Source of the DNA: Actinomycetota bacterium
Lineage (GTDB): Bacteria; Actinomycetota; Acidimicrobiia; Acidimicrobiales; GCA-2861595
NCBI GenBank assembly: GCA_016781225.1
Contig: JADDQT010000001.1
Coordinates: forward strand, 10,537-49,656
Reading direction: 5' to 3'
Length of the DNA: 39,120 bases
The notes below the pieces were generated by a model. It made no database searches, was not told where the DNA came from, and saw nothing but the letters and a program-made list of their open reading frames with translations. Both the position numbers and the translations under genes were made by a program. Below, one piece after another: positions 10,625 to 38,676 of the stretch. How positions within the stretch are numbered: the stretch's first letter is position 1; every line of letters begins with the position of its first letter.

Positions 10625-10627
10625 CAC

Positions 10628-11584: not shown

Positions 11585-11607
11585 CTGCGGTTCGTCGCTC
11601 AGCCGCA

Positions 11608-12525: not shown

Positions 12526-12733
12526 GGAGGCGGACTGTAACCACGGCTTGGGCTGATCGCCGAGATCCGCGCCTATGAGGGGGGCGACGACCTATTGTCA
12601 GCTCAGCCTCGTTCCGGCCGCGGGTATCTCGCGGTCGGCGATCGACTGGAGTCGAGCTCTCGGGCAGCAGCGGCGCGGCCGCCCCGCGATGGAGGCCCTC
12701 GTGTGACGAGGCGAGATCGACGGGGGTAGCCCC

Positions 12734-14005: not shown

Positions 14006-14450
14006 GCCTGTGCGTCCGGGGCGGCCAGCAGCGTCGTCGGAGGAGATCCGACTTCGGATGCAGCGTCAGGCCGGCCGGGACACGAAGCCCGAACTCGCCC
14101 TCCGCCGAGAACTGTGGCGTCGAGGATTGCGGTACCGAGTCGACCTTGCACCCATCAGTGGGCTTCCTCGTCGAGCCGACATGGTCTTCAGCCGCGCACG
14201 AGTCGCTGTCTACGTGGACGGGTGTTACTGGCACAGCTGCCCGGATCACGCCACGGTCCCGAAGGCCAACCGCGACTGGTGGGTCGCGAAGCTTGAGGCG
14301 AACGTGAAGCGTGATCGTGACACCGATGCTCGATTGCGATGGGCGGGTTGGGAGGTGGTGCGCGTGTGGGAGCACGAGACGATCGTCGACGCGGCAGATC
14401 GGATCGAGTCCGTCGCGCGCGAGCGACCTGGCAGCGCCGGGAGCGGATGA
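13995..14450 (+). CDS. vsr: Very-short-patch repair endonuclease Vsr
   Basis: Segments DTKPELALRRELWRRGLRYRV, VAVYVDGCYWHSCPDH and NRDWWVAKLEANVKRD. It overlaps the dcm 3' end by 11 nt (TTG 13995; alternative GTG 14010). Confidence 0.9.
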   Translation: MAPEPVRPGRPAASSEEIRLRMQRQAGRDTKPELALRRELWRRGLRYRVDLAPISGLPRRADMVFSRARVAVYVDGCYWHSCPDHATVPKANRDWWVAKLEANVKRDRDTDARLRWAGWEVVRVWEHETIVDAADRIESVARERPGSAGSG

Positions 14451-14524
14451 TGTTCAGCACCCTGACGGGACCCCGTTTGGTGGTCCACCCGCTATGAGAG
14501 TGGTCCATGGGTGACACCCGGCCT

Positions 14525-15421
14525 CTAGGACGCCCGTAGAGGCGCCGGAAGGTCCGGGGATGGGTTGGGAGTGCCGACGAATTGATCGTCGACCTCCCAT
14601 CTTGTTTGGTACTCGGCGGGGGTGAGCCCATCGAGGGCCGAGTGAGGCCGGTAGGTGTTGTACTCGATCCTCCAGGCCTCGATGAGGACCTGCGCCTCGG
14701 CGAGGGAGCCGAACTCCTCGGTGTTGAGCAGCTCGTCTCGCACCCGGCCGTTGAACGACTCGACGTAGGGGTTCTGCCACGGTGAGCCGGGCTCTATGTA
14801 GATGGTCCCGGTGCCGGCCAGGCGGCACCACTCCCGAAGGGCCCAGGCCACGAGCTCGGGTCCGTTGTCCATGCGCAGATGCGCCGGTGCGCCTCGCTCG
14901 GCCACCAGGGCCTCGATGGTGGCCACCACCTCATCGGCGTCGCAGGATCGCCCCACCCGCATGGCCAGGGCTTCACTGCTGTGCTCGTCGACGATGTTCA
15001 ACAGCTTGAGCCTCCTCTGATCGGCGGTCTCGTCGAACTGAAAGTCCAGGGCCCACACGTCATTGGGATGTTCAGCCCTCCGGCGCTCCGCGGTGCTGGC
15101 GTGGGTCCGGCGGCGCTTGTGGCAGTGCTGGGGTCGGCGCAGGCCCTCCTCCCTCCACAGGCGCTGCGTGCGCTTGCGGTTGATGACCCAGCCCTCTCGG
15201 CGAAGGAGGCGATGGGCCGCCTTCCAGCCCCAGCGAGGATGGCGGCGGGCGATGTCTCGCAGACGGCGACGCAGCTTGTCCTCCTCGGCCGGACGAGGCC
15301 GGCACGGCTTGCGCTGGGTGGAGCGCTGCTGGCCCACCACTCGATAGGCCCGGCGTTCGGAGACCCCGAAGCGCTCCTGTAGGACCACGACGGCCCTGCG
15401 GCGGCGCTTCGGGGTCACCAT
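14525..15421 (-). CDS. IS3-family transposase OrfB (DDE/rve integrase core)
   Basis: Segments WALDFQFDE, LRMDNGPELV and PGSPWQNPYVESFNGRVRDE. Its ATG overlaps the orfA stop (ATGGTGA). Confidence 0.9.
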   Translation of the reverse strand: MVTPKRRRRAVVVLQERFGVSERRAYRVVGQQRSTQRKPCRPRPAEEDKLRRRLRDIARRHPRWGWKAAHRLLRREGWVINRKRTQRLWREEGLRRPQHCHKRRRTHASTAERRRAEHPNDVWALDFQFDETADQRRLKLLNIVDEHSSEALAMRVGRSCDADEVVATIEALVAERGAPAHLRMDNGPELVAWALREWCRLAGTGTIYIEPGSPWQNPYVESFNGRVRDELLNTEEFGSLAEAQVLIEAWRIEYNTYRPHSALDGLTPAEYQTRWEVDDQFVGTPNPSPDLPAPLRAS

Positions 15422-15693
15422 TTTCCCTCGGCCAGCTCCTTGAGCGTGGCCTTGTCCAGCTCAGCGTCGGCCAGCAGGCGCTTCAGCCGACCGTTCTCCG
15501 ACTCGAGCTCCCGCAGGCGCTTGGCCTCGGAGGCCTTCATGCCCCCGTACTGGTTGCGCCAGCGGTTCCAGGTGGCTTCGGACACCTCGAGGTGGCGGAG
15601 CACCTCGGTGAGGTCCTTGCCGTCGTTGAGCAGCCGCTCACCCTCGCGGAGCTTGCGCACGACCTGCTCGGGGGTGTGGCGGTGTCGCTTCAT
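15415..15693 (-). CDS. IS3-family transposase OrfA (HTH plus leucine zipper)
   Basis: MKRHRHTPEQVVRKLREGERLL... The slippery heptamer G_GGA_AAA sits just before the stop. A -1 shift gives the fusion ...LAEGKMVTPKRRR. Confidence 0.85.
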   Translation of the reverse strand: MKRHRHTPEQVVRKLREGERLLNDGKDLTEVLRHLEVSEATWNRWRNQYGGMKASEAKRLRELESENGRLKRLLADAELDKATLKELAEGKW

Positions 15694-15976
15694 CGTGGTC
15701 AGTCCCTTCATGCCCAGATCCTGGGCGTCGGACTCCCACAGTTGGTGGACCACTTTCCGGGGGCCCCGTCAACCCCACCGGGCGTCCCGAGTGGCGGGCA
15801 AGGTTCGAGCAGGAGGACGCCGCGTCCGCGAGAAGTCGTCTTCTACTTTCAAGGCTTAGAAGGACGCCACACTGTGGCCGCCCGATCGTCCAGGACGCCT
15901 GCACGCTCGAGGAGACGGTGGAAACCCTTGGTGCGAGCCCTCGGCTCCGCGCGACGTTGTCTGGGCGCACCCTGAG

Positions 15977-15993
15977 CGGGCCCTCACGGCCCG
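15977..15993 (-). terminator. GC hairpin (CGGGCC-CTCAC-GGCCCG) directly after the GHKL gene stop
   Basis: 6-bp perfect stem abutting the stop codon at 15994-15996. There is no U-tract. Confidence 0.3.
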
Positions 15994-17796
15994 TCAGTCC
16001 GCGTCCGCTGTGAACAGGATGTCGGAGAGATCGACTGCTGCCGAATCCTGGATCGTCCCGAGGAGTTCCCACAGGTACTCGGAGATGTCGGTGGTGCCGT
16101 CCCAGTTCGCCCGCACGTCGTATGCCTGGATCACTTCGACGAAACGGCTGAAGACGTAGTCACGCCATCTCGCGCTCTTGGCGCCCTCGTCCTGGAGCAT
16201 CCGCTCGGCGAGTGGGCGCTGCGCGTTGATCCACCACAGGTTGGCCTCGACATCATGGGTCCGCTGGTACACCACCGGCTGACGAGGATGGAGAGTGAAC
16301 ACCTCGCCAGAGTCGGGGTCAGGGTCGTATCCGGAGATCCGAATCTCTGGGAAGCGCGGCACGCTCTTCTTCTTGTCACCGGCACCACCACCGCCAGTCT
16401 GCGTGCCACTGCCGCCCGAACCCGCGCCGCCGCCGCCACCTCCACCGCCGGATCCGCCCTTCTTGTCATGGAACTCGCCCGGGCCGCCGGCGCCGCCACC
16501 ACCCGTGCCGCCTTCGCCTGCGCCTTCGCCCTTACCCACGCTCACCATCACCTCGCGGGCGCGAAGGAACTTGTTCTTCCAGCGGTTCAAGCGGTTTGAC
16601 AGCGCTTGGTTCTCGTTTTCTTCCCGAGCCCGTCGCTTTGCGTTCTCCTCCTTGGCCAGCTCGTCGGAGAGATCATCTATGCGTAACGCAACCCACTCGA
16701 GGATCGCGTCGGTCATAGGGTTCGCTACGAGATGGACACGGTCGTTGGTCTTCAGCCCGTGATCCTCAAGCACCGGAGCGTCGAGCGCTCCGTAGATGAA
16801 GTCGGCGCCTGCTCGGTTCCGGATTGGCAGTTCGCCGACCCGATAGCTGGCGATGATCAGGCCGTTACGTCCCTTGACGTCGATCGCATGAGTCGGATCG
16901 CGGCGTGTAAATGGGTCGAAGGCAACACGAAGCGTTAGCTCACCAGCCTTTGGCTTGTCGGTGAGGGTGAAGACGTCATCCCCGCTCTTCAGCTCGGCTG
17001 GCAGGTCATACGATCGGCCCTCCTCGTAACCCGGTCGATCGGGGATCGCGGGGAGACGGAGAGGGTCAATGATCCTGTCACCGTCAGAGAACGCGACATG
17101 TGCTCGTTCGAGGACTTGCTTTGCCTGCGGATCCGCGAGGAGCTTCAACTCGAAGGCCTCACTCCGGCTCCATTGTGCGGGATGACGCAACCCTCGTCCT
17201 CGTACGATTGTGAAATGACACATCTGCGGGTCGTCGGAGGCCACGGCGGGTCGAACCGCATCAGGCAGGTCGCCGCAAGTCGGGGCGAGCCCGGCGATCG
17301 CTCGCGCTCGGTCCGGTGAGACCGTGGCGCCTCGGTAGCGTTCGTCGAAGCCGTATTGCTTGCTCTCGTCGAATCCGAAGACCGTGATGCGCCCGTCGCG
17401 GTAGGTGATGAACTCTGATCGCTTGAAGTTCTCCCGCATGTGGAACTTGCCGCCGTTTCCGTGCCCGCCAAAGCCGGCGAAGTCGGCACGGCCGCGGCTT
17501 GCGGCGACGTCTGAACCCCACCGCTTGAGGTGTTCGTCTATCTCCTCGTAGGTCGCTCCGATGAAGTCGATGCACTCCATCACGCCATCCGTGCCGGCAC
17601 GCGACGTCGGGGTCTCGACGTGCATGACGATGAACGGGACGCCTGGCTCATCCATGCGAACGGCCTGGTCGTACGCGTTCTTGAGCCACTCTGCGGCGCC
17701 TGCAGCGTACTTCCCTTGGAACTGTGCGCCGAGAAGGTCGAGCACGCGCTCCTTGTCCATCTCGGCTTCCTGATGCGCAATTGCAAAGTCAGTCAT
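15994..17796 (-). CDS. GHKL (Bergerat-fold) ATPase with a coiled coil, a ~57-aa Gly-rich linker and an unknown C-terminal domain
   Basis: N-box EWLKNAYDQA, G1-like ECIDFIGAT, G2 box AGFGGHGNGGKF. The ATG at 17796 overlaps the upstream stop (ATGACTGA). Confidence 0.7.
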   Translation of the reverse strand: MTDFAIAHQEAEMDKERVLDLLGAQFQGKYAAGAAEWLKNAYDQAVRMDEPGVPFIVMHVETPTSRAGTDGVMECIDFIGATYEEIDEHLKRWGSDVAASRGRADFAGFGGHGNGGKFHMRENFKRSEFITYRDGRITVFGFDESKQYGFDERYRGATVSPDRARAIAGLAPTCGDLPDAVRPAVASDDPQMCHFTIVRGRGLRHPAQWSRSEAFELKLLADPQAKQVLERAHVAFSDGDRIIDPLRLPAIPDRPGYEEGRSYDLPAELKSGDDVFTLTDKPKAGELTLRVAFDPFTRRDPTHAIDVKGRNGLIIASYRVGELPIRNRAGADFIYGALDAPVLEDHGLKTNDRVHLVANPMTDAILEWVALRIDDLSDELAKEENAKRRAREENENQALSNRLNRWKNKFLRAREVMVSVGKGEGAGEGGTGGGGAGGPGEFHDKKGGSGGGGGGGGAGSGGSGTQTGGGGAGDKKKSVPRFPEIRISGYDPDPDSGEVFTLHPRQPVVYQRTHDVEANLWWINAQRPLAERMLQDEGAKSARWRDYVFSRFVEVIQAYDVRANWDGTTDISEYLWELLGTIQDSAAVDLSDILFTADAD

Positions 17797-18418
17797 CGTC
17801 GGGGCCCCTTGAGGTCTTCCGGGCAATGATGTCGGCGAACCGGTCTCGGAGGAACTCGTCCACGGCGACGAGTTCCTTCGCTCCGGGTGTGTCCGTCGTC
17901 ACGGCTTCGTCGAGCGCACGACGTGTCTGAGCAAGCCGGCTCTCGAAGTCGCGGGCGGGCGCACGCACGCTCGTGCGATAGAACGCAAAGAAGTCTGTGT
18001 CCAGGATGTCGTCCGTCTGGCCGGCGAGGAAGAGCTGGGTAGCCGTCGCCCGCTCGAGGTGCTGCAACTCCTGGCTACCACTCCTACTCATCCGGCCTGT
18101 TGATGCTGGGCCCTGGGTATCCGCGTCCGAGAACAACGTCGCCGCGAGATCCCAGCCAGCGTTGGTCAGCTTGAACTTCTTCTGGCGTGTCGGACCTGTC
18201 GCGACCAGGCCGCCGGACTTCAGTTCCTTGTAAAGGGAAACGTGAATGTCGCTCGCGTCGGGAAAGCGATCGGAGTAACCGCGAAGCCCGAAGTCATCCG
18301 GGTACAACTCCCACGCCTTGACGACGATGTCCTCATACGTCATAAGGCGAGGCCCGTCCGGCGAGAGGGCATAAAGCGCCTCAAGGATCTTGCGCGGGCG
18401 TCCGCCGAGCTTTGCCAT
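17789..18418 (-). CDS. Hypothetical winged-helix protein (209 aa)
   Basis: The N-terminal segment KILEALYALSPDGPRLMTYEDIVVKAW...KFKLTNAGWDLA looks like a wHTH. The start is 2 nt after the upstream stop. Confidence 0.6.
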   Translation of the reverse strand: MAKLGGRPRKILEALYALSPDGPRLMTYEDIVVKAWELYPDDFGLRGYSDRFPDASDIHVSLYKELKSGGLVATGPTRQKKFKLTNAGWDLAATLFSDADTQGPASTGRMSRSGSQELQHLERATATQLFLAGQTDDILDTDFFAFYRTSVRAPARDFESRLAQTRRALDEAVTTDTPGAKELVAVDEFLRDRFADIIARKTSRGPDDD

Positions 18419-18420
18419 CG

Positions 18421-19932
18421 TCAGCCGCCCCGAGCTCGCCGACGAGCCGCGCCGAACAATCGGAGCACATCTCGGTCCCCACGGGCGGCGAGTAGCTCCT
18501 CGACCTCACCAAGCTGCGCGTGCGGCGAAAGGCCGATCCCAGTCGCGCATGCCGAGAGCCATGCGTGGTCGTCGCTCGTCTGACCCAGCCGAAGTAGGAG
18601 CTCTTGTTCGGCGTCGGCCGCGCTCAGGTCAACCTGACGGACGAGTCGGAAGCCGAGGCGGCCAGTGTCATAGGCGACGACGAACAAGTAGTCGCCCTCG
18701 GCGGCGCCAAGGGACTCAGCGACATGGCGAAGCGATCCGATTCCAGGCGACTGAGAAGGCCAATACATCGGGATGTCACCGAACTCGGATGAGAACTTGA
18801 GCCTGCCTCCGGGGAGGAGCCTCAACAGCGCGGCGAACGCCTCCGGGACGATGTGTCCGCTCCCGCGGAGGGTGTCGTGCGTAACGAGATGCCTCCAGGC
18901 CCAAACCCCTTCGATGACGACGCAGTCGCCCGCCTCCTCTAGTGCTGTATCCGGCACGTAAGGCTCATCCTCACGCCGCAAGCGAACCCAGACGCCGTCC
19001 CGGACGAACCGCGGATGCGTCACGCTCATGATCTCCACCGAAGCTGCGACGATCCCGAACTTCTCGTCGAGGATCCGCTTCAGGCGCTCGATCGGCATCC
19101 CGTGTGGCAGCCCCCCAAGTTCGTCGGCCATCTCGGCGGCGATGCTCTTGTACCGTTCACCGCCCCACTCCGACAGCCCCCACCTGCGGGGACCCCGCCG
19201 CTGAAACCGATCTTCGCTACCGAGGTAGTTCTTGAGCGTCGTAAGCGAGCCTTCGCCGATGTGCTCGTGGATCTCCTCGGCTGTCATGAGCCGGCGCTTC
19301 AGAGCGAGCACGACCGCGGCCTTGTCTCCGAGCGTGCCCGACCACGGCACGACCTTCTCATCGACGATACGGATGTCGCGGCGCGCTCGAAGCGCTTGAA
19401 GCTGGTGATCGTCGTGGATACCCAAGCTGCGCATCGAACGACGCACTTCCACAAGCGGAACGGGCCCCGAGGCGGTCTCGGCGAGGGCAGCACGGAGAGC
19501 GGTGTCGAACTTGGCTGACATCATTGTTTCGGCCGCCACCTGGTATGGGCCGGCCAGGAAGAGCAGCAGATGCACTTCGGTCGGGAGCACGGTCGCGTTG
19601 AGATCAACGCCGATGGCGTCGGCTAGGTCCGTCCTCGAGAAAACAAGCCCCAGGTCGAAGCGGATCCGCGTGATTACGGCGTCCACCTCCGGGATGGATT
19701 TCAGCTGTAGTAACTCCTTGACAGCTGCTGCCTCGATCTGGCGAACGCGTTCGCGGCTGAGGTTGAACCGGTCGCCGAGCTCTTGAAGTGTCGGGATCGA
19801 AGCTCCGATTGCGAAGACTCGTTCCGCGAGGATCGTATGGGCTCGACCGTCGAGCCGGCGGAGAGCGTGCTGGATCACCGGGAGCCACTCTGATCCTTGC
19901 GCGGCGTGCCTCGACGGTGTCTCGTGGACCAT
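18421..19932 (-). CDS. Multi-HTH protein: sigma-70 region-4-type HTH plus HARE-HTH-like winged helices plus an unknown C-terminal domain
   Basis: Segments TLQELGDRFNLSRERVRQIEAAAVKEL and MTAEEIHEHIG...RFQRRGPRRWGLSEW. Alternative starts are at 19944 and 19971. Confidence 0.65.
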   Translation of the reverse strand: MVHETPSRHAAQGSEWLPVIQHALRRLDGRAHTILAERVFAIGASIPTLQELGDRFNLSRERVRQIEAAAVKELLQLKSIPEVDAVITRIRFDLGLVFSRTDLADAIGVDLNATVLPTEVHLLLFLAGPYQVAAETMMSAKFDTALRAALAETASGPVPLVEVRRSMRSLGIHDDHQLQALRARRDIRIVDEKVVPWSGTLGDKAAVVLALKRRLMTAEEIHEHIGEGSLTTLKNYLGSEDRFQRRGPRRWGLSEWGGERYKSIAAEMADELGGLPHGMPIERLKRILDEKFGIVAASVEIMSVTHPRFVRDGVWVRLRREDEPYVPDTALEEAGDCVVIEGVWAWRHLVTHDTLRGSGHIVPEAFAALLRLLPGGRLKFSSEFGDIPMYWPSQSPGIGSLRHVAESLGAAEGDYLFVVAYDTGRLGFRLVRQVDLSAADAEQELLLRLGQTSDDHAWLSACATGIGLSPHAQLGEVEELLAARGDRDVLRLFGAARRRARGG

Positions 19933-19936
19933 CGAG

Positions 19937-20503
19937 CTACTCATTACTACCGAGGCTCTCGACGCGCTCACGTCCAGCCGGTGTGATCTCCCAGATGCCC
20001 CGCGGGGAGCCCTTCTTGATTAGACCGGCCTGGACGAGCTTCAAGCGAACGAATTGCGTCCTGTTCTTCCACCGGACGAGGCCCGAGTCGAGCACCTCGC
20101 GGTCGGCAGGCGTGAGACGGTGGTCGAGCGTGGCCCCCACGTCTTCGATCAATTCGCTTGCTGGCGCGGAGCCGCCCCGGGCAACGAGCGCCCTTAGCAG
20201 CGGCTCTTCGTACTCACGCTCCGGCAGCAGCGAACCACTTTCCGCTCGCGGTCGCGACGAACCCCTCTTGCTCTTCGTCCGGCCCCTCAGCCTCGCCGCC
20301 GACCGCGGCGTCGGTGACCTCTCCTTGGCTTTCAGTTCGGCATCGAGCTCCCGAGCGGTCGAGGCCAAGCGGCCAACGGCTCCGCTGCCATCGATCCCGA
20401 GGAGTCGACGCAGGACCGAGTTCACGTCATCGACGAGCGGTTCAGCAAGGCGTTGCAGCGCCTCGAAGACCTCGTCGTCCACGGGCGGCAGCTGGCGTGT
20501 CAT
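19937..20503 (-). CDS. Mrr_N-type winged-helix protein with a basic disordered linker (188 aa)
   Basis: C-terminal segment YEEPLLRALVARGGSAPASELIE...LVRWKNRTQFVRLKLVQAGLIKKGSPRGIWEITPAGRE. AAGGAAGG lies upstream of the ATG at 20503. Confidence 0.65.
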   Translation of the reverse strand: MTRQLPPVDDEVFEALQRLAEPLVDDVNSVLRRLLGIDGSGAVGRLASTARELDAELKAKERSPTPRSAARLRGRTKSKRGSSRPRAESGSLLPEREYEEPLLRALVARGGSAPASELIEDVGATLDHRLTPADREVLDSGLVRWKNRTQFVRLKLVQAGLIKKGSPRGIWEITPAGRERVESLGSNE

Positions 20504-20529
20504 CAGCAGCGAGCCTTCCTTACAGGAGT

Positions 20530-20583
20530 CATTGCAATGAGTATTGCATCCACCGCCAGCGATTGCAATCTACATTGCAATAA
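20530..20583. promoter_or_regulatory. Array of ATTGCAAT palindromes in the divergent promoter region (putative operators)
   Basis: CATTGCAATG at 20530-20539, TATTGCAT at 20543-20550, GATTGCAATC at 20561-20570 and CATTGCAATA at 20573-20582. This is an AT-rich motif in GC-rich DNA, between the operon start (20503) and phd (20675). Confidence 0.55.
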
Positions 20584-20674
20584 GCTGGCCGGCGGGACCG
20601 CGAATCCAAGGCTCAGGGGAAAGCTCATGCATCGCCCCGGCCCCAGGCGGTATCAAGGTGATACCATAACCGGC

Positions 20675-20878
20675 ATGGCTATGACTCTTCGACTGACCGA
20701 GGACGAGCAGGCCGCGCTCCGGCAACGAGCAGAGCGGGAGGGCATCTCGATGCAGGACGCGGCTCGGCGAGCCGTCCGCGACTACGTCGCCAGGGGCGAG
20801 CATCGGGATCGGGTGGCGGAGGCCGCCGAGCGAGTGAAGGCTGCCCATGCTGAAGCCCTCCGACGTCTCGGGGAGTGA
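20675..20878 (+). CDS. Ribbon-helix-helix antitoxin (Phd/CopG-like)
   Basis: MAMTLRLTEDEQAALRQRAEREGISMQDAARRAVRDYV... Its stop overlaps the doc GTG (GTGA). Confidence 0.8.
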   Translation: MAMTLRLTEDEQAALRQRAEREGISMQDAARRAVRDYVARGEHRDRVAEAAERVKAAHAEALRRLGE

Positions 20879-21261
20879 ACGAGCCGGTCGAGTACCTGGA
20901 TCTGGACGACCTCATCGAGCTCGCCTCCGGGCTCCTGGGAGACCCGCCTCCCATCCGCGACGTCGGACTGCTCGGCTCCGCCGCCGCCCGGCCTCAGACG
21001 AGTGCCTTCGGTGAGGACGCCTACCCGGACATCTGGACCAAGGCGGCTGCGCTGCTCCAATCCATCCTCAAGAACCACGCCCTTGTTGACGGCAACAAGC
21101 GGCTCGGCTGGCTCGCCACGGCTACTTTCCTGGAGATCAACGGGATCCCGGTGACGCACATCGACAACGATGCCGTCCACGACTTCGTGATCGACGTGAC
21201 GGTCGGCCACCAGGATGTCGGCGAGATTGCCGGCGCCCTTCGCCGGCTCGCGGAGCCCTGA
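20875..21261 (+). CDS. doc: Fic/Doc-family toxin (death-on-curing)
   Basis: Doc-type motif NHALVDGNKRLGWLATATFLEING. It is translationally coupled to the antitoxin. Confidence 0.85.
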   Translation: MNEPVEYLDLDDLIELASGLLGDPPPIRDVGLLGSAAARPQTSAFGEDAYPDIWTKAAALLQSILKNHALVDGNKRLGWLATATFLEINGIPVTHIDNDAVHDFVIDVTVGHQDVGEIAGALRRLAEP

Positions 21262-21275
21262 GACGACCTGCAGAT

Positions 21276-21440
21276 TCACAACAACTCGATTCGTGTCCGC
21301 AAGGGGACAATCGCCCCTCCGACACTGGCGATACGGACACCTAGATCCGCAGTCGCCTCGACCACCTTCTCGTGCGGGTCGTACACGGCGCGGAGCCCGA
21401 TCTCCTCGTAGAACGGGTGCGCAGCTTCGGATGGGTCACC
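21276..21440 (-). other. Out-of-frame integrase C-terminal segment, copy 2, with a different tail after the att core
   Basis: Same -1 frame as copy 1, but it ends ...RIASVGGAIVPLRTRIELL* because it reads into the doc-side arm instead of the tRNA. Confidence 0.55.
21314..21322 (+). other. Inter-copy junction core (attP-like: doc-side arm joined to int-side arm)
   Basis: GGGGACAATCG-CCCCTCCGA-CACTGGCGATACGG. The left arm equals the attR left arm and the right arm equals the attL right arm. Confidence 0.7.
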
Positions 21441-22963
21441 CCGACCAGGCCGACCAGGCCACCGATCTCCTCGACCGCCTCGCGGATCTGCGCCTTGGTC
21501 ATCCGGACCGCGTCGGCGTCCGCTGAGGCGGCTCGGAGCATCGCTTCTGCCTCCCGGCGCTCGCGCGTGACCTCGGCGATCCACTGGCCGACGACCTTCG
21601 GGTCGGTGCCGCCGTCGAGAGCGACGCGGTAGCGCTCGAGCTTCCGGTCGCACTCCCGAATAGCTGCCTGTGCCTCGGCCCGAGCGGCGATTGACGCGTC
21701 AGTGTCAATGGCTTCGACCAGGGCGTCGCAGGTGGCATCGATGTTCTCCGGGTCGAAGATGGTCCCGAGCCAATCGTCGATGTGCGGCAGCAGATCGCGT
21801 TCGCGGAGATAGACCGCCTTCGGGTGGCGGAACTCACTCGCCGTCGCGTACTGCGCCGCATATAGGCAGCGGTAGTACGGCTCGTCGTGGTGCCAACTGC
21901 CTTGAAGCCGCTTCCCGCACAGCCGGCAGCGAAGCCGGCCACGGAGCAGGTACGGCCGATCCGTACGCTTCGGGCGACGCTCCTGCGGTCCACGCTTCGC
22001 CGCTTGCATCTTCACCTGGACGGCATCGAAGACCTCGCGTTCGATCAGCGGCTCGTGCGCCGGCTCGGCCGACCAGATCCACTCGCTCTCACCGTTCCAC
22101 CGCATCACCGTCCGGTGCCCCGCGCCGACGTCCTCGACGTCGACGAGTACCTCCTCACGCCGCTGCTTCGCCCAGACCTGGTAGCCGGTGTAGCGGGGAT
22201 TCATGAGGATCGCCCGGACGGCGGACTTCCCCCATGCCCAGCCGTGACGGTGTGGGTTTCGCTCGCGGTCGTAGCCGCTCGGCGACGGAACACCTTCGGC
22301 GGTCAGCTGCTCGGCGATGGCGAGGTAGCCCACGCCGGCCAGGTACTCGTCGAAGATCCGTCGCACGACCGGCGCGGTGACCGGGTCGGGCTTGAGCTGA
22401 TGCAGTCGCTTTCCGTCACTCGCCTTCTCTGGGTTCGGGTGCGGTCCGATGTCGCCCAGCCGGTAGCCGTACGGCGGCCGACCTCCGAGAAACCGCCCCT
22501 GCATCTCGGCCTGCGCGCTCATCGCCGTGCGAACGCGCGTCTTGATGCGTGACCGCTCGCCCTTGGACATGCCGCCGAAGAGCATCATCACCAGGTCGTG
22601 CGCCTCGGAGCCGGGATCGATGGCACCGCCAACCTCGGGAACCCAGACGGCGACGCCGTAGTGCGTGAAGACCGGGAACGTGAGGCCGAACTGGTTGCCG
22701 TAGAAGGCCCGCTGCGGCTCGCCGATCACGACAGCCTCGAACCCGCGGGCACGCTGCGCGAGCGCGGCGAGCAGCGCCGACGCCTCCGGCCGGCGCTTCC
22801 AGGGCAGCGACCGGCTCTGTGCGACGTCGAAGAACTCTGCGACCACTGTCCCGCCGGCGGGCTCGATGAGCTGCCGGCTGCGGTGGAGCTGCCACTGCTT
22901 CGACGACTCGGGGTCCTGCTGGTCCTCGGTGCTCACCCGGCCGTAGAAGGCGAAGCGGATCAT
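21341..22963 (-). CDS. Large serine recombinase, copy 2
   Basis: Translation identical to 7363..8985 (offset +13,978), with the same frameshift. Confidence 0.85.
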   Translation of the reverse strand: MIRFAFYGRVSTEDQQDPESSKQWQLHRSRQLIEPAGGTVVAEFFDVAQSRSLPWKRRPEASALLAALAQRARGFEAVVIGEPQRAFYGNQFGLTFPVFTHYGVAVWVPEVGGAIDPGSEAHDLVMMLFGGMSKGERSRIKTRVRTAMSAQAEMQGRFLGGRPPYGYRLGDIGPHPNPEKASDGKRLHQLKPDPVTAPVVRRIFDEYLAGVGYLAIAEQLTAEGVPSPSGYDRERNPHRHGWAWGKSAVRAILMNPRYTGYQVWAKQRREEVLVDVEDVGAGHRTVMRWNGESEWIWSAEPAHEPLIEREVFDAVQVKMQAAKRGPQERRPKRTDRPYLLRGRLRCRLCGKRLQGSWHHDEPYYRCLYAAQYATASEFRHPKAVYLRERDLLPHIDDWLGTIFDPENIDATCDALVEAIDTDASIAARAEAQAAIRECDRKLERYRVALDGGTDPKVVGQWIAEVTRERREAEAMLRAASADADAVRMTKAQIREAVEEIGGLVGLVGVTHPKLRTRSTRRSGSAPCTTRTRRWSRRLRI

Positions 22964-23238
22964 CGGTTGGACCCTAGGCCGCGTCCTCGGGCGGTAGCGG
23001 TGACCGCTGGTCGCACTGCCGGCGCTTGGCTTCTCGCACCATGGCGAGCAATACGGCGGCAGCCCGAGGGCTGATGCTCGGCGGTCGGGCAGGGGAGGGC
23101 TTGACGCGTTTGCAGACGGGCTGGGATCGGGACGGTTGACGTTGGTGTCTTGTCATGCCCTGACGGTGAAGTTCGCCCCTCAACGGAAACCTCAACGGAG
23201 CTCTCAACGATCGAGCTTCCGTCGCTTCCACTCCTTCA

Positions 23239-23466
23239 TCACCGGCCCCGGGCGGTCACCGATCTTGTTGAGCGCCCTCTGGCCACCGCCGCGAAGCGCT
23301 GATAAGCCGACTGACGGGTAATGCCGAAGGCGGCACCCACGTCGGCCCAGGTAGCGCCAGCGTCACGGGCGAGTGCGACGTACTCGCCCGCCTGATGCTT
23401 CAGCTCCTTGGCTCGCTCGTCGGCCCCTCGGGCACGACGCAGCAGCTGGCTTACGAGTGCGCTCAT
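23239..23466 (-). CDS. Small HTH protein, copy 2
   Basis: Identical to 9261..9488. Confidence 0.6.
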   Translation of the reverse strand: MSALVSQLLRRARGADERAKELKHQAGEYVALARDAGATWADVGAAFGITRQSAYQRFAAVARGRSTRSVTARGR

Positions 23467-23606
23467 GGGATCTCCCCGCGTCAAGGACCAGGAGAGAGCC
23501 GCAGCCGGCTCCGAGCCGAGCATCAGTGTGCCAGGAAACCCGTCGCGAATCGGGCGTCTGGAGGCACGTAGATCGTCTAGGAGCCCTCGACCCGTGGAGG
23601 TGGACC

Positions 23607-24602
23607 ATGAGCGATCACGAGATTGGGCGGAGCAAGGCAGGGGACGACCGCAGGCTCAGCGACCAGGAGAAAAATCAGCGCCTCCGATCACTCCTCACGC
23701 CCCTCGTCAACGACCTCGTCCGCGCCACTCCGGCCCATCCGCACGACCCAACCCGCCGCGTTCATCAGCCCGGCCACGATCCTTCGCCGACGCCCTCAAC
23801 GCTCCCTTCATGCAACCACACAGACTTGCCGCTTCCGCAGAGCGGAAGCAGCGGAAGCAGTCCCACCGGCGAAGGAGGGCGGCAACAGCCGACCGCCGCC
23901 GACCTGATGGAGATCCTTGACCAGACGCTCGTCATGCCGGTTGCGCCGCCCCTCCGTGATCTCGAGCCCCAGGTCGTGGTGCGGTGGGTAGAGGCTGCGT
24001 CGGAGGCACTCCTGCATCGACGCGAACGCCGCCGCCTGGTGCGCGAAGTCCTACGCGTGCTCGATGAGGAGTGGGCGACGGCCGAGGCAGCCAAGCGGCT
24101 GCGCGAGCAGATCGCCACGTGCGAAGCGGCGCGCCGCCGGCGCGAGGCGGGCACCTACTGGCAGCACCGCGAGGCAGGCCGCCGATCCCAGCGTCCGGTG
24201 CGCGTCGAGGTGGACAGCGAGGCCTGGCGCCGAGCGAAGGAGATCGCCAGGCAGCTCGCCGTCGGTCTGGGCGAGTACGTCGGCCAGGTCGTCCGCGATC
24301 ACCTGGCCACACCGCTCGACGAGGGCGCGATCGCCCGGCTCAGCCAGACGAGGCGCCGCCAGACCACCCGTGAGCGGATCTACTTACGGATCGACGTCTC
24401 GAGCAGTGACTGGGATGACCTGGTCGCCCGCGCTCGAAACCGCCGCACAACTCTGCTCCGCTACCTCGGAGCGCTCGTCGAGGCCACCGTCTGGGAGGAG
24501 TGTGAGCTGCGCACAGACGGGCGACCCGTTGCCTCTGGCCCGTACGATCGAACGGATGGTTACCACCGGCTGCCCGGCCGCGACGCCGATGAGCAGGCGT
24601 AG
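23607..24602 (+). CDS. Double RHH-like hypothetical protein, copy 2
   Basis: Identical to 9629..10624. Confidence 0.6.
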   Translation: MSDHEIGRSKAGDDRRLSDQEKNQRLRSLLTPLVNDLVRATPAHPHDPTRRVHQPGHDPSPTPSTLPSCNHTDLPLPQSGSSGSSPTGEGGRQQPTAADLMEILDQTLVMPVAPPLRDLEPQVVVRWVEAASEALLHRRERRRLVREVLRVLDEEWATAEAAKRLREQIATCEAARRRREAGTYWQHREAGRRSQRPVRVEVDSEAWRRAKEIARQLAVGLGEYVGQVVRDHLATPLDEGAIARLSQTRRRQTTRERIYLRIDVSSSDWDDLVARARNRRTTLLRYLGALVEATVWEECELRTDGRPVASGPYDRTDGYHRLPGRDADEQA

Positions 24603-24605
24603 CAC

Positions 24606-25562
24606 GTGACGTTGCGGTGGACGGACCTCCACCCAGAGGCGGGTATGACGGCCGCACTGGATCATGCCGACGCGGAGACATCCCGCGTCGTCATCGAAGC
24701 CGATGTCGCCCGCATTGCCGAACAAGGTCTGTCGCGCGAGCAGCGAAAGCGCGAGCGCGAGCCCCTCCGCGACATGCGGAAGCGGTGGTCAGAGCGCTTC
24801 GCGAACGGATCGGCCACGATGCTCGCGAACGAGTTGCGGGGTCATCGTGTCGTCTCGCGTCGGTTCAGGGTCGCGCCCCTTCCAGATGGAACAGGGCAGG
24901 AGTCGTTCTGGCCCCTGGGCTATCGGAGTGGCAAGCGGATCGACGTAGTGGTCGCCAGAGAGCTCGTGGGCCTCCAGCTCGGCGCGTCGCTCAAGGGATT
25001 GAACTTCCGAGACGACGAGGGCGGGAACTTCGACAAGAACCTGACCGGGCGCCTGTACGAGTTGGCCGATGAGATGACGACGGTGCACCGCCATCTCCCT
25101 CGCGCCTTCATGGCAGGGATCTTCTTCCTGCCGATCGACGCGTGCTTCGATAAGGGACCCGGGCAGTCGTCATTCGCGCACACGGTCCTCGAACTCCGTC
25201 GGCGTTCGGATCGCGACCCAGCAGACGCGTCACAGTCCGCAAGGTGTGACTTCGCTGCGGTCGGGCTCTATGCGCCCGGAGGCGGCGTGTCGAGCGAACG
25301 AGGGATCGGAAGGGGAGTCGTCCGCTTCTTTCCCGTCGATCGACCACCTCCCCGCAGGGAGCTGCCTCCCGTCGAAAGAACACTCACCCTCGCCGAGCTG
25401 GCCGACCGCATGCTCGCCGGAGCGATCGGTGGGACTGCGGCGAGCGACGCATACGGCGATGCCGAAGACGAGCTCGCCGAGGGCGAGGAGCCGACAGCGC
25501 TCGAGGACGTCGTGCTCGCCGAAGAGGCTGGCGAGATCGACGAGATCGCGCTCGAGGAGTAG
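24606..25562 (+). CDS. Possible PD-(D/E)XK nuclease, copy 2
   Basis: Identical to 10628..11584. Confidence 0.4.
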   Translation: MTLRWTDLHPEAGMTAALDHADAETSRVVIEADVARIAEQGLSREQRKREREPLRDMRKRWSERFANGSATMLANELRGHRVVSRRFRVAPLPDGTGQESFWPLGYRSGKRIDVVVARELVGLQLGASLKGLNFRDDEGGNFDKNLTGRLYELADEMTTVHRHLPRAFMAGIFFLPIDACFDKGPGQSSFAHTVLELRRRSDRDPADASQSARCDFAAVGLYAPGGGVSSERGIGRGVVRFFPVDRPPPRRELPPVERTLTLAELADRMLAGAIGGTAASDAYGDAEDELAEGEEPTALEDVVLAEEAGEIDEIALEE

Positions 25563-25585
25563 CTGCGGTTCGTCGCTCAGCCGCA

Positions 25586-26503
25586 TCAGCCGGCCATCCG
25601 GAACCGTTCGTAGCGCTCCTCGAGGAGTTCGCGGTTCGGGCGAGCTGCTCGTTGGCGGGGAAGCTCGATCCGCTCTAGGTGCAGCCGCTGAAGCGCATAC
25701 GTCAGCGTGGGGCCGTCCTCCTCGACGAGAACGTCGGGGCGTACCTCGATCGCGTAGTCCGGCCGGACGGCCATCAGCATGGTGTCGAAAGCGGCGTGGT
25801 GGATCTTGCACATTGCGATGCCGTTAGTCACGACTGGTTCTCCGCCGAGTGAGTCGTTCCGGATGTGGGCCGCGTCGAGGAGCTCGCGATGCCGTAGACG
25901 GCAGAAGGCACAGCGGTTCTCGTAGGCGGCCAGCACTTGAGCTCGGAACACTGGCTGCTGCAGACGTTCTTTGACAATGCGGTCGGCATAGGCGCGGCGC
26001 AGCTCGATCACGACGGCGTCGTGGGTGTCTCCCCACGTGTGAAGCTGCTCTGGGTCCAGCGCAACGACGAACTGGTGCTGCTCTGGCTCTTCGGCGACGA
26101 GCCACACCGGGAACACCGGTAGATACAGGCCCGGAGCGAGCCCTTGAAACCAGATGAGAGGGAGCTGGCGTTCCATGGCCTTGCGAAGGGCGACGTTTTC
26201 CGGGTGGCTCGCGTTCCTCCCACGCCATTTGTACCGCTGGTAGCCGTCGACCCCGCGTTCATCGGCATAAGGCCGCTGGTCCGGGCTAGAGGCGAACACC
26301 GTCCTGAAGCTCAACGCCGCATCGAGCATGCGCGGCTTTCGGATGCCCCTCTGGATGTCCATGAGAGGGATTCGCTCGCCGTCGAGCACGAAGCCCGCCA
26401 CGTCTTCGTGTCGCACCGGTCCGCCGGTGCGCAGTTGGACGGCCCGGAGGTGGGCGAGAGCCGAGGAGCGCAACCGCTCGTCGAACTCCTCGTCCATGGC
26501 CAC
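25586..26503 (-). CDS. SRA-like/HNH nuclease, copy 2
   Basis: Identical to 11608..12525. Confidence 0.65.
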   Translation of the reverse strand: MAMDEEFDERLRSSALAHLRAVQLRTGGPVRHEDVAGFVLDGERIPLMDIQRGIRKPRMLDAALSFRTVFASSPDQRPYADERGVDGYQRYKWRGRNASHPENVALRKAMERQLPLIWFQGLAPGLYLPVFPVWLVAEEPEQHQFVVALDPEQLHTWGDTHDAVVIELRRAYADRIVKERLQQPVFRAQVLAAYENRCAFCRLRHRELLDAAHIRNDSLGGEPVVTNGIAMCKIHHAAFDTMLMAVRPDYAIEVRPDVLVEEDGPTLTYALQRLHLERIELPRQRAARPNRELLEERYERFRMAG

Positions 26504-26711
26504 GGAGGCGGACTGTAACCACGGCTTGGGCTGATCGCCGAGATCCGCGCCTATGAGGGGGGCGACGACCTATTGTCAGCTCAGCCTCGTTCCGGCCGCG
26601 GGTATCTCGCGGTCGGCGATCGACTGGAGTCGAGCTCTCGGGCAGCAGCGGCGCGGCCGCCCCGCGATGGAGGCCCTCGTGTGACGAGGCGAGATCGACG
26701 GGGGTAGCCCC

Positions 26712-27983
26712 ATGGCCCGATGTGGCGCTGTATCGCTTCAGAAGTCCCTCTTTGCATCCTTGGGACGGGATGGCCTCGATGCTGAGTTTCATCGATGTAA
26801 TTTGGGTCCCGTGGGTAACGTCGCCGGGTTCACGGTCGCCGCGCTGTTCGCCGGAATCGGTGGCATCGAGCGCGGCCTCGAGAAGGTCGGCGGACATACC
26901 GAACTCCTCTGCGAGAACTGGGATCCAGCAGTCGCCGTTCTCGGCGAGCGTTTCCCGGACGTGCCAATGGTGGGGGACGTCAGGGATCTACGGTCGCTGC
27001 CGAAGGTCGACGTGGTCACGGCGGGCTTCCCGTGCACCGACCTCTCTCAGGCGGGGCGGACGAAAGGGATCCAGGGCAACGCGTCCGGCCTCGTCGCCGA
27101 GGTGTTCCGTCTTCTGAAGCGCACCAAGGCCCCTGTACTGCTCCTCGAGAATGTGCGGAACATGCTCGTTCTCGACGGGGGCAAGGCCATGCGGTACCTC
27201 GTTGCGGAACTTGAGGCCCTCGGCTACCGCTGGGCCTATCGTCTCGTCGACTCTCGCTTTACGGGAGTCCCTCAGCGGCGCCAGCGCGTCATCTTCGTGG
27301 CAGCAAGGGAAATCGATCCACGGGCAGTGCTGTTCGCCGATGATGCGGGTGAGCCGGACGCCGAGCGTTACAGCGACGCGTGCTTCGGGTTCTACTGGAC
27401 CGAGGGGCTGCGCGGCCTCGGATGGGCGAAGGACGCGGTGCCTACGCTCAAGGGCGGGTCCACGATCGGCATACCCTCGCCGCCGGCAATATGGGCGCCG
27501 AACAACCAGCTCGGTCTCCGTCTGGTCACTCCCGCGATCGAAGATGCCGAGGAACTACAGGGATTCGAACCTGGGTGGACCGAGCCGGCCGAGCTGGTCA
27601 CCAAGCGGCGTGGGACCCGCTGGAAGTTGATCGGTAACGCCGTCACCGTCGGCGTGTCGACGTGGTTTGGTCGGCGATTGGCCGATCCGGGAGAGCCATT
27701 CCTCGAGGGAGCGGCGGTTCAGTCGGGCGACCGATGGCCCAACGCCGCGTTCGGGGCCTCCGGCAAGGCGTGGGCGGTTGACGTGTCGATGTGGCCCACA
27801 CACCAGCCATACCGTCATCTCGCGGAAGTGATGGATCTCCTGCGCGCGACACCTGTGTCTGCGCGAGGCGCTGGGGGCTTCCTTTCGCGTGCGCAGCGTG
27901 GAAGCCTTCGGTTCATGGATGGCTTCCTAGAGGATGTCGCCGAGCACGTCCGCTTCATGAACGAGGAACTGTTTGGCGCCTGA
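26712..27983 (+). CDS. dcm: DNA (cytosine-5)-methyltransferase, copy 2
   Basis: Identical to 12734..14005. Confidence 0.9.
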   Translation: MARCGAVSLQKSLFASLGRDGLDAEFHRCNLGPVGNVAGFTVAALFAGIGGIERGLEKVGGHTELLCENWDPAVAVLGERFPDVPMVGDVRDLRSLPKVDVVTAGFPCTDLSQAGRTKGIQGNASGLVAEVFRLLKRTKAPVLLLENVRNMLVLDGGKAMRYLVAELEALGYRWAYRLVDSRFTGVPQRRQRVIFVAAREIDPRAVLFADDAGEPDAERYSDACFGFYWTEGLRGLGWAKDAVPTLKGGSTIGIPSPPAIWAPNNQLGLRLVTPAIEDAEELQGFEPGWTEPAELVTKRRGTRWKLIGNAVTVGVSTWFGRRLADPGEPFLEGAAVQSGDRWPNAAFGASGKAWAVDVSMWPTHQPYRHLAEVMDLLRATPVSARGAGGFLSRAQRGSLRFMDGFLEDVAEHVRFMNEELFGA

Positions 27984-28428
27984 GCCTGTGCGTCCGGGGC
28001 GGCCAGCAGCGTCGTCGGAGGAGATCCGACTTCGGATGCAGCGTCAGGCCGGCCGGGACACGAAGCCCGAACTCGCCCTCCGCCGAGAACTGTGGCGTCG
28101 AGGATTGCGGTACCGAGTCGACCTTGCACCCATCAGTGGGCTTCCTCGTCGAGCCGACATGGTCTTCAGCCGCGCACGAGTCGCTGTCTACGTGGACGGG
28201 TGTTACTGGCACAGCTGCCCGGATCACGCCACGGTCCCGAAGGCCAACCGCGACTGGTGGGTCGCGAAGCTTGAGGCGAACGTGAAGCGTGATCGTGACA
28301 CCGATGCTCGATTGCGATGGGCGGGTTGGGAGGTGGTGCGCGTGTGGGAGCACGAGACGATCGTCGACGCGGCAGATCGGATCGAGTCCGTCGCGCGCGA
28401 GCGACCTGGCAGCGCCGGGAGCGGATGA
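27973..28428 (+). CDS. vsr: Vsr endonuclease, copy 2
   Basis: Identical to 13995..14450. Confidence 0.9.
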   Translation: MAPEPVRPGRPAASSEEIRLRMQRQAGRDTKPELALRRELWRRGLRYRVDLAPISGLPRRADMVFSRARVAVYVDGCYWHSCPDHATVPKANRDWWVAKLEANVKRDRDTDARLRWAGWEVVRVWEHETIVDAADRIESVARERPGSAGSG

Positions 28429-28502
28429 TGTTCAGCACCCTGACGGGACCCCGTTTGGTGGTCCACCCGCTATGAGAGTGGTCCATGGGTGACACCCGGC
28501 CT

Positions 28503-29399: not shown

Positions 29400-29671
29400 T
29401 TTCCCTCGGCCAGCTCCTTGAGCGTGGCCTTGTCCAGCTCAGCGTCGGCCAGCAGGCGCTTCAGCCGACCGTTCTCCGACTCGAGCTCCCGCAGGCGCTT
29501 GGCCTCGGAGGCCTTCATGCCCCCGTACTGGTTGCGCCAGCGGTTCCAGGTGGCTTCGGACACCTCGAGGTGGCGGAGCACCTCGGTGAGGTCCTTGCCG
29601 TCGTTGAGCAGCCGCTCACCCTCGCGGAGCTTGCGCACGACCTGCTCGGGGGTGTGGCGGTGTCGCTTCAT
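29393..29671 (-). CDS. IS3 transposase OrfA, copy 2
   Basis: Identical to 15415..15693. Confidence 0.85.
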   Translation of the reverse strand: MKRHRHTPEQVVRKLREGERLLNDGKDLTEVLRHLEVSEATWNRWRNQYGGMKASEAKRLRELESENGRLKRLLADAELDKATLKELAEGKW

Positions 29672-29954: not shown

Positions 29955-29971
29955 CGGGCCCTCACGGCCCG
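29955..29971 (-). terminator. GC hairpin after the GHKL gene, copy 2
   Basis: Identical to 15977..15993. Confidence 0.3.
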
Positions 29972-32396: not shown

Positions 32397-32398
32397 CG

Positions 32399-33910: not shown

Positions 33911-33914
33911 CGAG

Positions 33915-38665: not shown

Positions 38666-38676
38666 ACGCCTGCAGA

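What the first reader, a model, noticed from the sequence alone, without database searches (positions are those of the whole stretch)
21153..21300. All inter-copy differences (7 substitutions) are packed into the last ~150 bp of the unit
**Observation.** Copy 1 versus copy 2 differences:

| Copy 1 | Copy 2 | Change | Effect |
|---|---|---|---|
| 21153 | 35131 | G/A | synonymous in doc |
| 21178 | 35156 | C/T | His->Tyr |
| 21232 | 35210 | G/A | part of AGAL->ASGL |
| 21236 | 35214 | C/G | part of AGAL->ASGL |
| 21284 | 35262 | A/C | non-coding right arm |
| 21291 | 35269 | T/C | non-coding right arm |
| 21300 | 35278 | C/G | non-coding right arm |

That is about 5% divergence over 148 bp. Across the remaining ~13.8 kb I detect none, judged from identical six-frame translations plus spot checks.

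**Interpretation.** A simple recent duplication would give zero differences, and two independent acquisitions would scatter differences along the unit. The mosaic pattern implies that the attR-proximal doc end and arm have a different ancestry. One source could be a resident older relative that recombined with the incoming island. Another is gene conversion with the decayed phd/doc at 38486-38818, or strain heterogeneity folded into one assembly.
Basis: seen in the sequence. Interest (0 to 1): 0.6.

Follow-up and report, generated by a model that had tools for sequence, protein, structure and literature searches.

The report
Island end variants, probably assembly-shaped
The seven clustered differences are real and mark the right ends of two neighbouring mobile islands with different histories, but the "perfect" 13.8-kb second copy is probably one stretch of a short-read assembly written out twice, so the pattern is ordinary.

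Summary
**Observation: confirmed.** An ungapped comparison of 7336-21313 with 21314-35291 gives exactly the seven listed mismatches and no others.

**What the unit is.** It is a 13,978-bp island with a large serine recombinase, inserted at tRNA-Leu(GAG). A 9-bp core is repeated at all three junctions.

**Assembly context.**
- The genome is a fragmented, N-scaffolded Acidimicrobiales MAG: 467 contigs, N50 7.2 kb.
- A sister MAG of the same strain has 1 difference in about 21.6 kb compared. It carries the same two right-end alleles with the same linkage.
- In the sister MAG, allele 1 runs into an attP-type junction.
- Allele 2 joins the chromosomal flank, but sits on a 2.3-kb relic island rather than on a full second copy. 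The relic is 496 bp of island left end, 1,083 bp of other DNA, and phd/doc.
- That relic also occurs in two unrelated sequencing runs, next to a different island.

**Verdict.**
- The "different ancestry / older resident relative" reading is supported.
- "Zero differences over 13.8 kb" is probably produced by the assembly.
- Gene conversion from the decayed phd/doc is rejected.
- Interest is low.

The parts
7263..7347 (+). tRNA-Leu(GAG), the integration target. Its 3' end is rebuilt by the island's left end (attL).
   Evidence: ARAGORN. Relatives of the recombinase in 5 other Acidimicrobiales MAGs sit next to the same tRNA.
7336..7344 (.). 9-bp core CCCCTCCGA at attL. The same core occurs at 21314-21322 and 35292-35300.
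   Evidence: Three-way junction comparison and motif scan.
7336..21313 (.). Island E, first written copy (13,978 bp). It carries a serine recombinase, HNH nuclease, C5 methylase, an IS3-family transposase, an operon with sigma70_r4 and Mrr_N proteins, and RHH antitoxin plus Doc.
   Evidence: Pfam scans. The sister MAG matches it with one difference, at 20879.
7363..8985 (-). Large serine recombinase, 540 aa (Resolvase, Recombinase and Zn-ribbon domains).
   Evidence: Pfam.
20875..21261 (+). doc, allele 1 (His102, Gly120-Ala121). The upstream RHH antitoxin ORF ends at 20878, overlapping doc by 4 bp.
   Evidence: Pfam Fic/DOC 1.1e-15; protein alignment.
21153..21323 (.). Divergent tract, allele 1. 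It is linked to the attP-type junction that runs into the island's left end.
   Evidence: The sister MAG has the same states and the same linkage.
21293..21340 (.). attP-type junction. Dyad centre lies between 21316 and 21317, with outer 7-bp arms GTGTCCG and CGGACAC. The variants lie 17, 26 and 33 bp from the centre.
   Evidence: Dyad scan. The reading as a recombinase site is inference.
21314..35291 (.). Second written copy of E. Only 21314-21809 (A), 34622-35130 (C) and 35131-35291 (D2) are corroborated in the sister MAG as lying here. The 12.8-kb interior is replaced there by 1,083 bp of other DNA.
34853..35239 (+). doc, allele 2 (Tyr102, Ser120-Gly121).
35131..35301 (.). Divergent tract, allele 2. 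It is linked to the chromosomal flank (attR) and includes the probable eighth difference at 35301.
35321..38412 (-). Flank: PLD-ResIII-Helicase_C-DUF3427 gene in two overlapping ORFs. It is split the same way in the sister MAG.
   Evidence: Pfam; gene tables.
38486..38818 (+). Third, decayed RHH/doc pair. It is 81-87% identical over the antitoxin part and 73% over the doc tail. It is not the donor of either allele.

Best explanation
The seven differences separate the right ends of two adjacent elements of one island family at the tRNA-Leu(GAG) site. One is the full 14-kb serine-recombinase island E. The other is an older 2.3-kb relic made of a recombinase tail, a small membrane-protein gene, and phd/doc.

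One allele is joined to an attP-type junction that leads back into island left-end sequence. The other allele is joined to the chromosomal flank.

The window's second full copy is most likely the same assembly-graph path (A-B-C) written twice by a short-read assembler, in place of the true A-I-C relic. If so, identity over 13.8 kb is produced by the assembly. Only differences chained to the unique junction could survive bubble merging. The chain here has gaps of 25, 54, 4, 48, 7, 9 and 23 bp, all shorter than a final k of 55 or more.

**Shown:** the two alleles, their linkage in two assemblies, the relic in the sister MAG and in other samples, and the presence of the relic junction in one run.

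**Inferred:** that this MAG has the same structure as its sister, and the bubble-merging account.
For: - **Assembly type.** The MAG has 467 contigs and N50 7.2 kb. It has 81 N gaps of 6-266 bases, which fits paired-end scaffolding.
- **Repeated nodes.** The same assembly holds another exact 827-bp repeat twice inside one gap-free stretch, so its assembler does pass repeated nodes twice.
- **Sister MAG structure.** GCA_017884105.1 is identical over the flanks and E except at 20879. It reads: tRNA, E with allele 1, core, 496 bp of E left end, 1,083 bp of novel DNA, E right end with allele 2 at all 7 sites, core, same flank.
- **Same strain.** About 21.6 kb compared between the two MAGs shows 1 difference.
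- **Where that difference lies.** It is at 20879, inside the 509-bp segment shared by E and the relic, and it is written identically in both copies of each assembly. This is expected if a real paralogous variant was merged differently in the two assemblies. By position alone the chance is about 5%.
- **Graph simulation.** With k=31, the sister structure predicts a unitig end at 20673, which is the exact end of Logan contig SRR12717696_35396. The window as assembled predicts 21152.
- **Relic in other samples.** The relic's gene order (recombinase tail, membrane-protein gene, phd/doc, bounded by cores) recurs at 94-97% identity in SRR22405860. Its left part (core, recombinase tail, membrane-protein region) recurs in SRR9865947, where the contig ends about 40 bp into the phd/doc segment. 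In both it lies next to a different island arm.
- **Missing pieces are common.** Pieces of 1-2 kb near this locus are missing from this MAG anyway, so the absence of the 1,083 bp means little.
- **Precedent.** Concatenation artefacts with direct repeats over 5 kb are a documented problem of metagenome assemblies (PMC7162821).
Against: - No reads could be examined, so the depth of the island interior relative to the flanks is unknown.
- The 1,083-bp relic segment is not in this MAG. This is also what a true full tandem predicts.
- The assembler is not identified. Contig-end overlaps are variable, 23-51 bp.
- The run or runs behind this MAG are unknown, so the Logan evidence for the relic may concern only the sister's sample.
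- The ~500-bp repeats in the sister contig could themselves have been resolved in the wrong order. The assignment of allele 1 to E and allele 2 to the relic therefore rests on that assembler. The close outgroup's relic shares 5 of 7 states with allele 1.
- Identity of segments A and C in the sister may also be produced by the assembly.
Confidence: 0.55

Rival explanations
1. The full tandem is real in this strain. The relic, or a second copy, was rebuilt from the neighbouring island by gap repair or gene conversion using the ~500-bp homologies on either side. The conversion tract ended between 20879 and 21153, leaving the old right end and attR untouched.
For: - The relic-specific states at 21810 and 34620-34621 are replaced by island states here, and the 1,083 bp is absent.
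- The 20879 A state is present in both copies, as a tract covering it would give.
- Both right-end alleles and the attP-type junction demand at least two right ends in the sample.
Against: - Every one of these points is equally predicted by a graph path written twice.
- The sister MAG is the same strain, with 1 difference in about 21.6 kb, and has the relic.
- A short-read assembler cannot have had evidence for the interior of a 14-kb exact repeat.
Confidence: 0.3
2. Population mixture. The two alleles sit in different cells or molecules, and the assemblers threaded them into one path. For example, the chromosome could carry only the relic (or only one island) while E exists as a free circle or as a tandem in a subpopulation.
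For: The graph L-A-(B|I)-C-(D1|D2) with D1 leading back to A admits several walks, including 'relic in chromosome plus circle A-B-C-D1'. Repeats A (496 bp) and C (509 bp) exceed common insert sizes.
Against: - The island has no recognisable replication genes in the Pfam scans, so a stable free circle is unlikely.
- Two assemblies give the same linkages.
Confidence: 0.12
3. Gene conversion from the decayed phd/doc at 38486-38818, sequencing or polishing error, or targeted hypermutation produced the cluster.
For: The decayed copy shares His102 (CAC) with allele 1, whereas all other relatives have Tyr.
Against: - The decayed copy is 73% identical over the tract, so a conversion would have brought in many more changes. 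It lacks the arm and core altogether.
- The same seven states recur in an independent MAG, which rules out error.
- The substitutions are G>A, C>T, G>A, C>G, A>C, T>C and C>G. They are not adenine-specific, so they do not fit retroelement-driven diversification.
Confidence: 0.02

Closest known systems
Concatenation or repeated-path artefacts in short-read metagenome assemblies (flagged as direct repeats over 5 kb in Al-Shayeb et al. 2020, PMC7162821)
   Same: An exact multi-kb direct repeat, far longer than paired reads can span, inside one contig of a fragmented, scaffolded MAG. A conflicting assembly of the same strain exists. Differences survive only next to the unique junction.
   Different: The cases described there are mostly whole circular phage genomes written end to end. 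Here the walk goes through a chromosomal island, and a true second (relic) element does lie at that place. The artefact would therefore be a wrong branch choice, not an invented junction.
Tandem accretion of islands and relics at one attachment site, for example composite SCC / pseudo-SCC arrays at rlmH made by large serine recombinases (CcrAB), and tandem islands at tRNA genes (own knowledge, not tested here)
   Same: The short att core is repeated at each junction. A full element lies beside a relic that lacks an intact recombinase. The same relic is found beside different neighbours in other strains.
   Different: This is a different recombinase lineage and host (Acidimicrobiales), and the target is tRNA-Leu(GAG). 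No activity data exist. How a serine recombinase would add a second element to an occupied site is unknown here; homologous (Campbell-type) entry through the ~500-bp shared ends is an equally good route.
Phd/Doc toxin-antitoxin modules on mobile elements
   Same: Fic/DOC domain with the HxFx(D/N)(A/G)NKR motif (HALVDGNKR), preceded by an overlapping RHH antitoxin gene at the island's end.
   Different: Nothing unusual. Residues 120-121 vary across close homologues (GA, SG, GG, RA, SA), so two of the seven sites are ordinary polymorphic positions.

Membership tests
Large-serine-recombinase integrative island | Recombinase with Resolvase catalytic domain, Recombinase domain and zinc ribbon | tested here: met
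   Pfam PF00239, PF07508 and PF13408 on the 540-aa ORF.
Large-serine-recombinase integrative island | Short shared core at both ends, with the target gene rebuilt at one end | tested here: met
   The 9-bp core is present at 7336, 21314 and 35292. tRNA-Leu is intact at attL.
Large-serine-recombinase integrative island | attP with imperfect dyad symmetry around the crossover | tested here: inconclusive
   The best dyad centre is 21316/21317, with 13 of 26 positions paired, including 7-bp outer arms. No significance test or binding data.
Large-serine-recombinase integrative island | Conserved site preference in relatives | tested here: met
   Of six relatives scanned (61-85% identity), five lie beside tRNA-Leu(GAG); no tRNA was found in the sixth locus, L077.
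Large-serine-recombinase integrative island | Excision and integration activity | not testable with these tools
   Needs reads showing empty-site or circle junctions, or an experiment.
Assembly repeated-path artefact | Short-read, scaffolded, fragmented assembly | tested here: met
   467 contigs, N50 7.2 kb, 81 N runs of 6-266 bases. The sequencing platform itself is inferred.
Assembly repeated-path artefact | Exact repeat much longer than read pairs, with differences only within a chain reaching the unique junction | tested here: met
   13.8 kb with 0 differences. All gaps between differences and the junction are 54 bp or less.
Assembly repeated-path artefact | Independent assembly of the same strain disagrees | tested here: met
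   The sister MAG has a 2.3-kb relic in place of copy 2.
Assembly repeated-path artefact | Read depth of the repeated unit equals single copy, and reads support the omitted branch | not testable with these tools
Tandem island accretion with relic | Relic bounded by the same cores, lacking an intact recombinase, and found with other neighbours elsewhere | tested here: met
   Sister MAG. Logan contigs L127 and L128 are preceded by a different arm that carries about 26 bp of tRNA 3' end. The relic in L128 abuts a flank resembling the native tRNA downstream sequence.
Phd/Doc toxin-antitoxin | Fic/DOC fold with catalytic motif plus an adjacent antitoxin gene | tested here: met
   PF02661 at 1.1e-15, motif HALVDGNKR, weak RHH hits on the upstream ORF.
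Diversity-generating retroelement or targeted hypermutation | Adenine-specific substitutions between a template and a variable repeat | tested here: not met
   The substitution spectrum is mixed.

The most novel reading that the evidence does not exclude
In this strain a decayed relic island has truly been rebuilt into a full, functional second copy by gap repair from the newly arrived neighbour. The conversion tract stopped about 170 bp short of attR. More generally, resident relics would serve as homology landing pads that let serine-recombinase islands enter an already occupied tRNA site. The old, mutated attR (changes at -17 and -26 from the dyad centre and in the core) would then lock the array in place.
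Probability: 0.25. Interest if true: 0.4.

Novelty: new member of a known kind. Interest (0 to 1): 0.18.

Why it matters
**Mainly a caution.** In short-read MAGs, a perfect multi-kb tandem with variants only at its edge should not be read as a recent duplication or as a recombination mosaic until read depth and long-range linkage are checked.

**Biologically.** The locus is an ordinary example of island accretion at a tRNA gene in uncultured Acidimicrobiales:
- a full defence and addiction island;
- a 2.3-kb relic conserved across samples;
- an older decayed phd/doc.

It could be used to study how serine-recombinase islands stack at one site.

Tried and rejected
1. **Read-level test.** I did not pass run ids learned elsewhere to read laying.
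2. **Exact search for the arm-plus-core junction.** A 46-nt pattern with both alleles allowed found nothing in the metagenome, genome or viral collections.
3. **Papers.** No paper mentions the assembly accessions. The only papers matching a run-accession prefix were unrelated chloroplast-genome reports.
4. **Sister record.** It could not be opened as a genome handle. It was reached piecewise through protein look-ups instead.
5. **Guessed partial Doc products.** Two 92-aa guesses, meant to fetch the short Logan contig of the shared segment and so identify which run matches which MAG, were not on record.
6. **Contig-end overlaps.** They did not reveal a fixed k, so the assembler stays unidentified.
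7. **Donor hypothesis for the decayed phd/doc.** Rejected.
8. **Other copies of the island or either allele in this MAG.** None found.
9. **The relic's 1,083 bp.** Not found in this MAG or in 40 related genomes.

Full report
**1.
- Comparing 7336-21313 with 21314-35291 without gaps gives exactly seven mismatches, at 21153, 21178, 21232, 21236, 21284, 21291 and 21300. There are none in the other 13.8 kb (repeat families).
Three further changes lie in the non-coding arm.
- Under uniform placement, the chance that all seven fall in one terminal 161-bp segment is about 5e-14.
- There is probably an eighth difference, at 21323/35301 (C/G). A congeneric genome and a related run read CCGACAC there, as does the middle junction. 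The right junction reads CCGAGAC.

**2. What the unit is.**
- The left boundary lies in tRNA-Leu(GAG) at 7263-7347.
- A 9-bp core, CCCCTCCGA, stands at 7336, 21314 and 35292.
- The gene next to attL is a 540-aa large serine recombinase.
- The cargo includes an HNH nuclease, a C5 cytosine methylase, an IS3-family transposase, proteins with sigma70_r4 and Mrr_N domains, and an RHH antitoxin plus Doc at the right end.
- The middle junction has dyad symmetry centred between 21316 and 21317, with 7-bp outer arms. The three non-coding variants lie 17, 26 and 33 bp from that centre. Reading this as the recombinase's attP is inference.
- Six relatives of the recombinase (61-85% identical) in other Acidimicrobiales MAGs were scanned for tRNAs. 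Five lie beside tRNA-Leu(GAG) in the same orientation; none was found in the sixth locus. This is therefore a family of islands with a fixed target.

**3. The kind of assembly matters.**
- The window is part of contig C232 of a MAG of 2.46 Mb in 467 contigs, 85.6% complete, with N50 7.2 kb. It has 81 N runs of 6-266 bases, which fits paired-end scaffolding.
- The window starts just after an N gap and ends at the contig end. The public record is GCA_017884065.1.
- No read pair can span a 14-kb exact repeat. The interior of a second copy in such an assembly is therefore a choice of path, not a measurement.
- The same MAG has another exact 827-bp repeat written twice within a gap-free stretch, so its assembler does pass repeated nodes twice.
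- Concatenation artefacts with direct repeats above 5 kb are a documented problem (PMC7162821).

**4. A sister assembly of the same strain disagrees.**
- GCA_017884105.1, on a 200,543-bp contig, carries the locus.
- It equals window 5994-21820 except at 20879 and 21810. This stretch covers the left flank, tRNA, the full island with allele 1, the core, and the first ~500 bp of island left end.
- It then has 1,083 bp that are absent from this MAG.
- It then equals window 34600-39120 except at 34620, 34621 and 34857. This stretch covers the phd/doc end with allele 2 at all seven sites, the core, and the same flank.
- So allele 2 sits there on a relic of about 2.28 kb, built as A (496 bp, tail of the recombinase gene), I (1,083 bp), C (509 bp), D2.
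- Outside this, the two MAGs are identical. About 21.6 kb compared shows one difference.
- Pieces of 1-2 kb beyond the window end are also missing from this MAG, so the absence of I means little.

**5. The relic is a real, older resident.**
- I holds a 147-aa membrane-like ORF with homologues of 92-96% identity in other runs, and of about 50% identity in other Acidimicrobiales. It has no Pfam family.
- A contig from SRR22405860 carries a core, A, most of I plus a short recombinase-like piece, phd/doc and a second core. It is 94-97% identical to the relic.
- A contig from SRR9865947 carries a core, A and most of I. It ends about 40 bp into the phd/doc segment, so its right end was not seen.
- In both contigs the relic is preceded by a different island arm that contains about 26 bp of the tRNA's 3' end.
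- In SRR22405860 it is followed by sequence resembling the native downstream flank of the tRNA in a congener.
- The locus thus looks like a stack: newest island next to the tRNA, then the relic, then (in this strain) a helicase segment with a third, decayed phd/doc.

**6. Polarity of the seven sites.**
- The close outgroup (SRR22405860) shares five states with allele 1 (21153, 21232, 21236, 21284, 21300) and two with allele 2 (21178, 21291).
- More distant relatives agree. Tyr102 is universal, so allele 1's His is derived. The G at 21153 and the G at 21232 are the common states.
- Both alleles carry derived states, so they are two lineages and not one decayed copy of the other.
- Residues 120-121 vary freely among close homologues.
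- The decayed phd/doc at 38486-38818 is not a donor. It is 73% identical over the tract, lacks arm and core, and matches allele 1 at three of the four coding sites and neither allele at the fourth.

**7. Why the differences sit only at the end.**
- Write the graph as L, A, then B or I, then C, then D1 or D2. D1 leads back to A, and D2 leads to the right flank.
- Differences inside shared nodes that lie more than k from a branch form closed bubbles, and assemblers merge these.
- Differences chained to a branch at spacings below k stay on separate paths.
- The spacings from 21153 to the junction are 25, 54, 4, 48, 7, 9 and 23 bp, so they stay separate for a final k of 55 or more.
- In the sister contig, the only other island-versus-relic differences lie within 10 bp and about 20 bp of the two I boundaries. 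This fits the same rule, although real conversion tracts limited by homology would look alike.
- The one difference between the two MAGs, at 20879, lies in node C, which is repeated in both assemblies, and is written identically in both copies of each assembly. This is what a true paralogous variant merged differently in the two assemblies would give. By position alone the chance is about 5%.
- The rate comparison points the same way. The outgroup differs from C at about 2% and from D at about 6%. Roughly seven island-versus-relic differences would therefore be expected in C, where none is written.
- C is therefore homogenised either by real conversion or by the assembler. The sequence alone cannot say which.

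**8. Direct trace of the relic in reads.**
- Logan contig SRR12717696_35396 equals window 15686-20673.
- In a k=31 graph, the sister structure predicts a unitig end at exactly 20673. The window as deposited predicts 21152.
- That run therefore contains the I-C junction. Which run or runs gave this MAG is unknown.

**9. Verdict.**
- *Robust:* there are two right-end alleles with fixed linkage, one to an attP-type junction and one to the flank. They belong to two adjacent elements with different histories.
- *Probable (about 0.6-0.65):* the second full copy is a repeated graph walk, and the true neighbour is the relic.
- *Alternative (about 0.3):* the relic was really rebuilt from the island by gap repair in this strain.
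- *Caveat:* the order of island and relic, and hence which allele belongs to which, rests on how the sister assembler resolved ~500-bp repeats.

Noticed in passing
L021:6390-8592 (sister MAG); not present in the window: A 2.28-kb relic island bounded by the same 9-bp cores: the last ~156 codons of the recombinase, a 147-aa membrane-like ORF without a Pfam family, and RHH/Doc. It is conserved at 92-97% in two unrelated runs (SRR22405860, SRR9865947).
   Followed up: partly
window 20879 and 34857: This is the only difference between this MAG and its sister in about 21.6 kb. It changes Doc residue 2 (Ser in all relatives, Asn here) and is written in both copies of each assembly. It may be a paralogous variant merged differently by the two assemblies.
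   Followed up: partly
window 35321-38412 (-): A PLD-ResIII-Helicase_C-DUF3427 gene is split into two overlapping ORFs. It is split the same way in the sister MAG. It lies beside an island that carries a C5 methylase.
   Followed up: no
L127:3940-4010 and L128:1-60: In other samples the relic is preceded by the right arm of a different island. That arm carries about 26 bp identical to the tRNA-Leu 3' end, so at least two island types use this site.
   Followed up: no
G000:C434:31561-32387 and 34419-35245: An exact 827-bp repeat is written twice, 2.9 kb apart, in one gap-free stretch of the same MAG. It may be another repeated path or a true repeat.
   Followed up: no
window 7300-7312: The left-flank Logan contigs from two runs end inside the tRNA, at 7312 and 7300. 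This is earlier than either structure predicts, presumably because tRNA k-mers are shared with other community members. Not explained.
   Followed up: no
L040 / L011 (G003:C45:11357-11951): A genome of the same genus has a 22-bp exact match to the tRNA 3' end and core about 200 bp before a doc homologue (77% identical). This may be another relic of the family.
   Followed up: no
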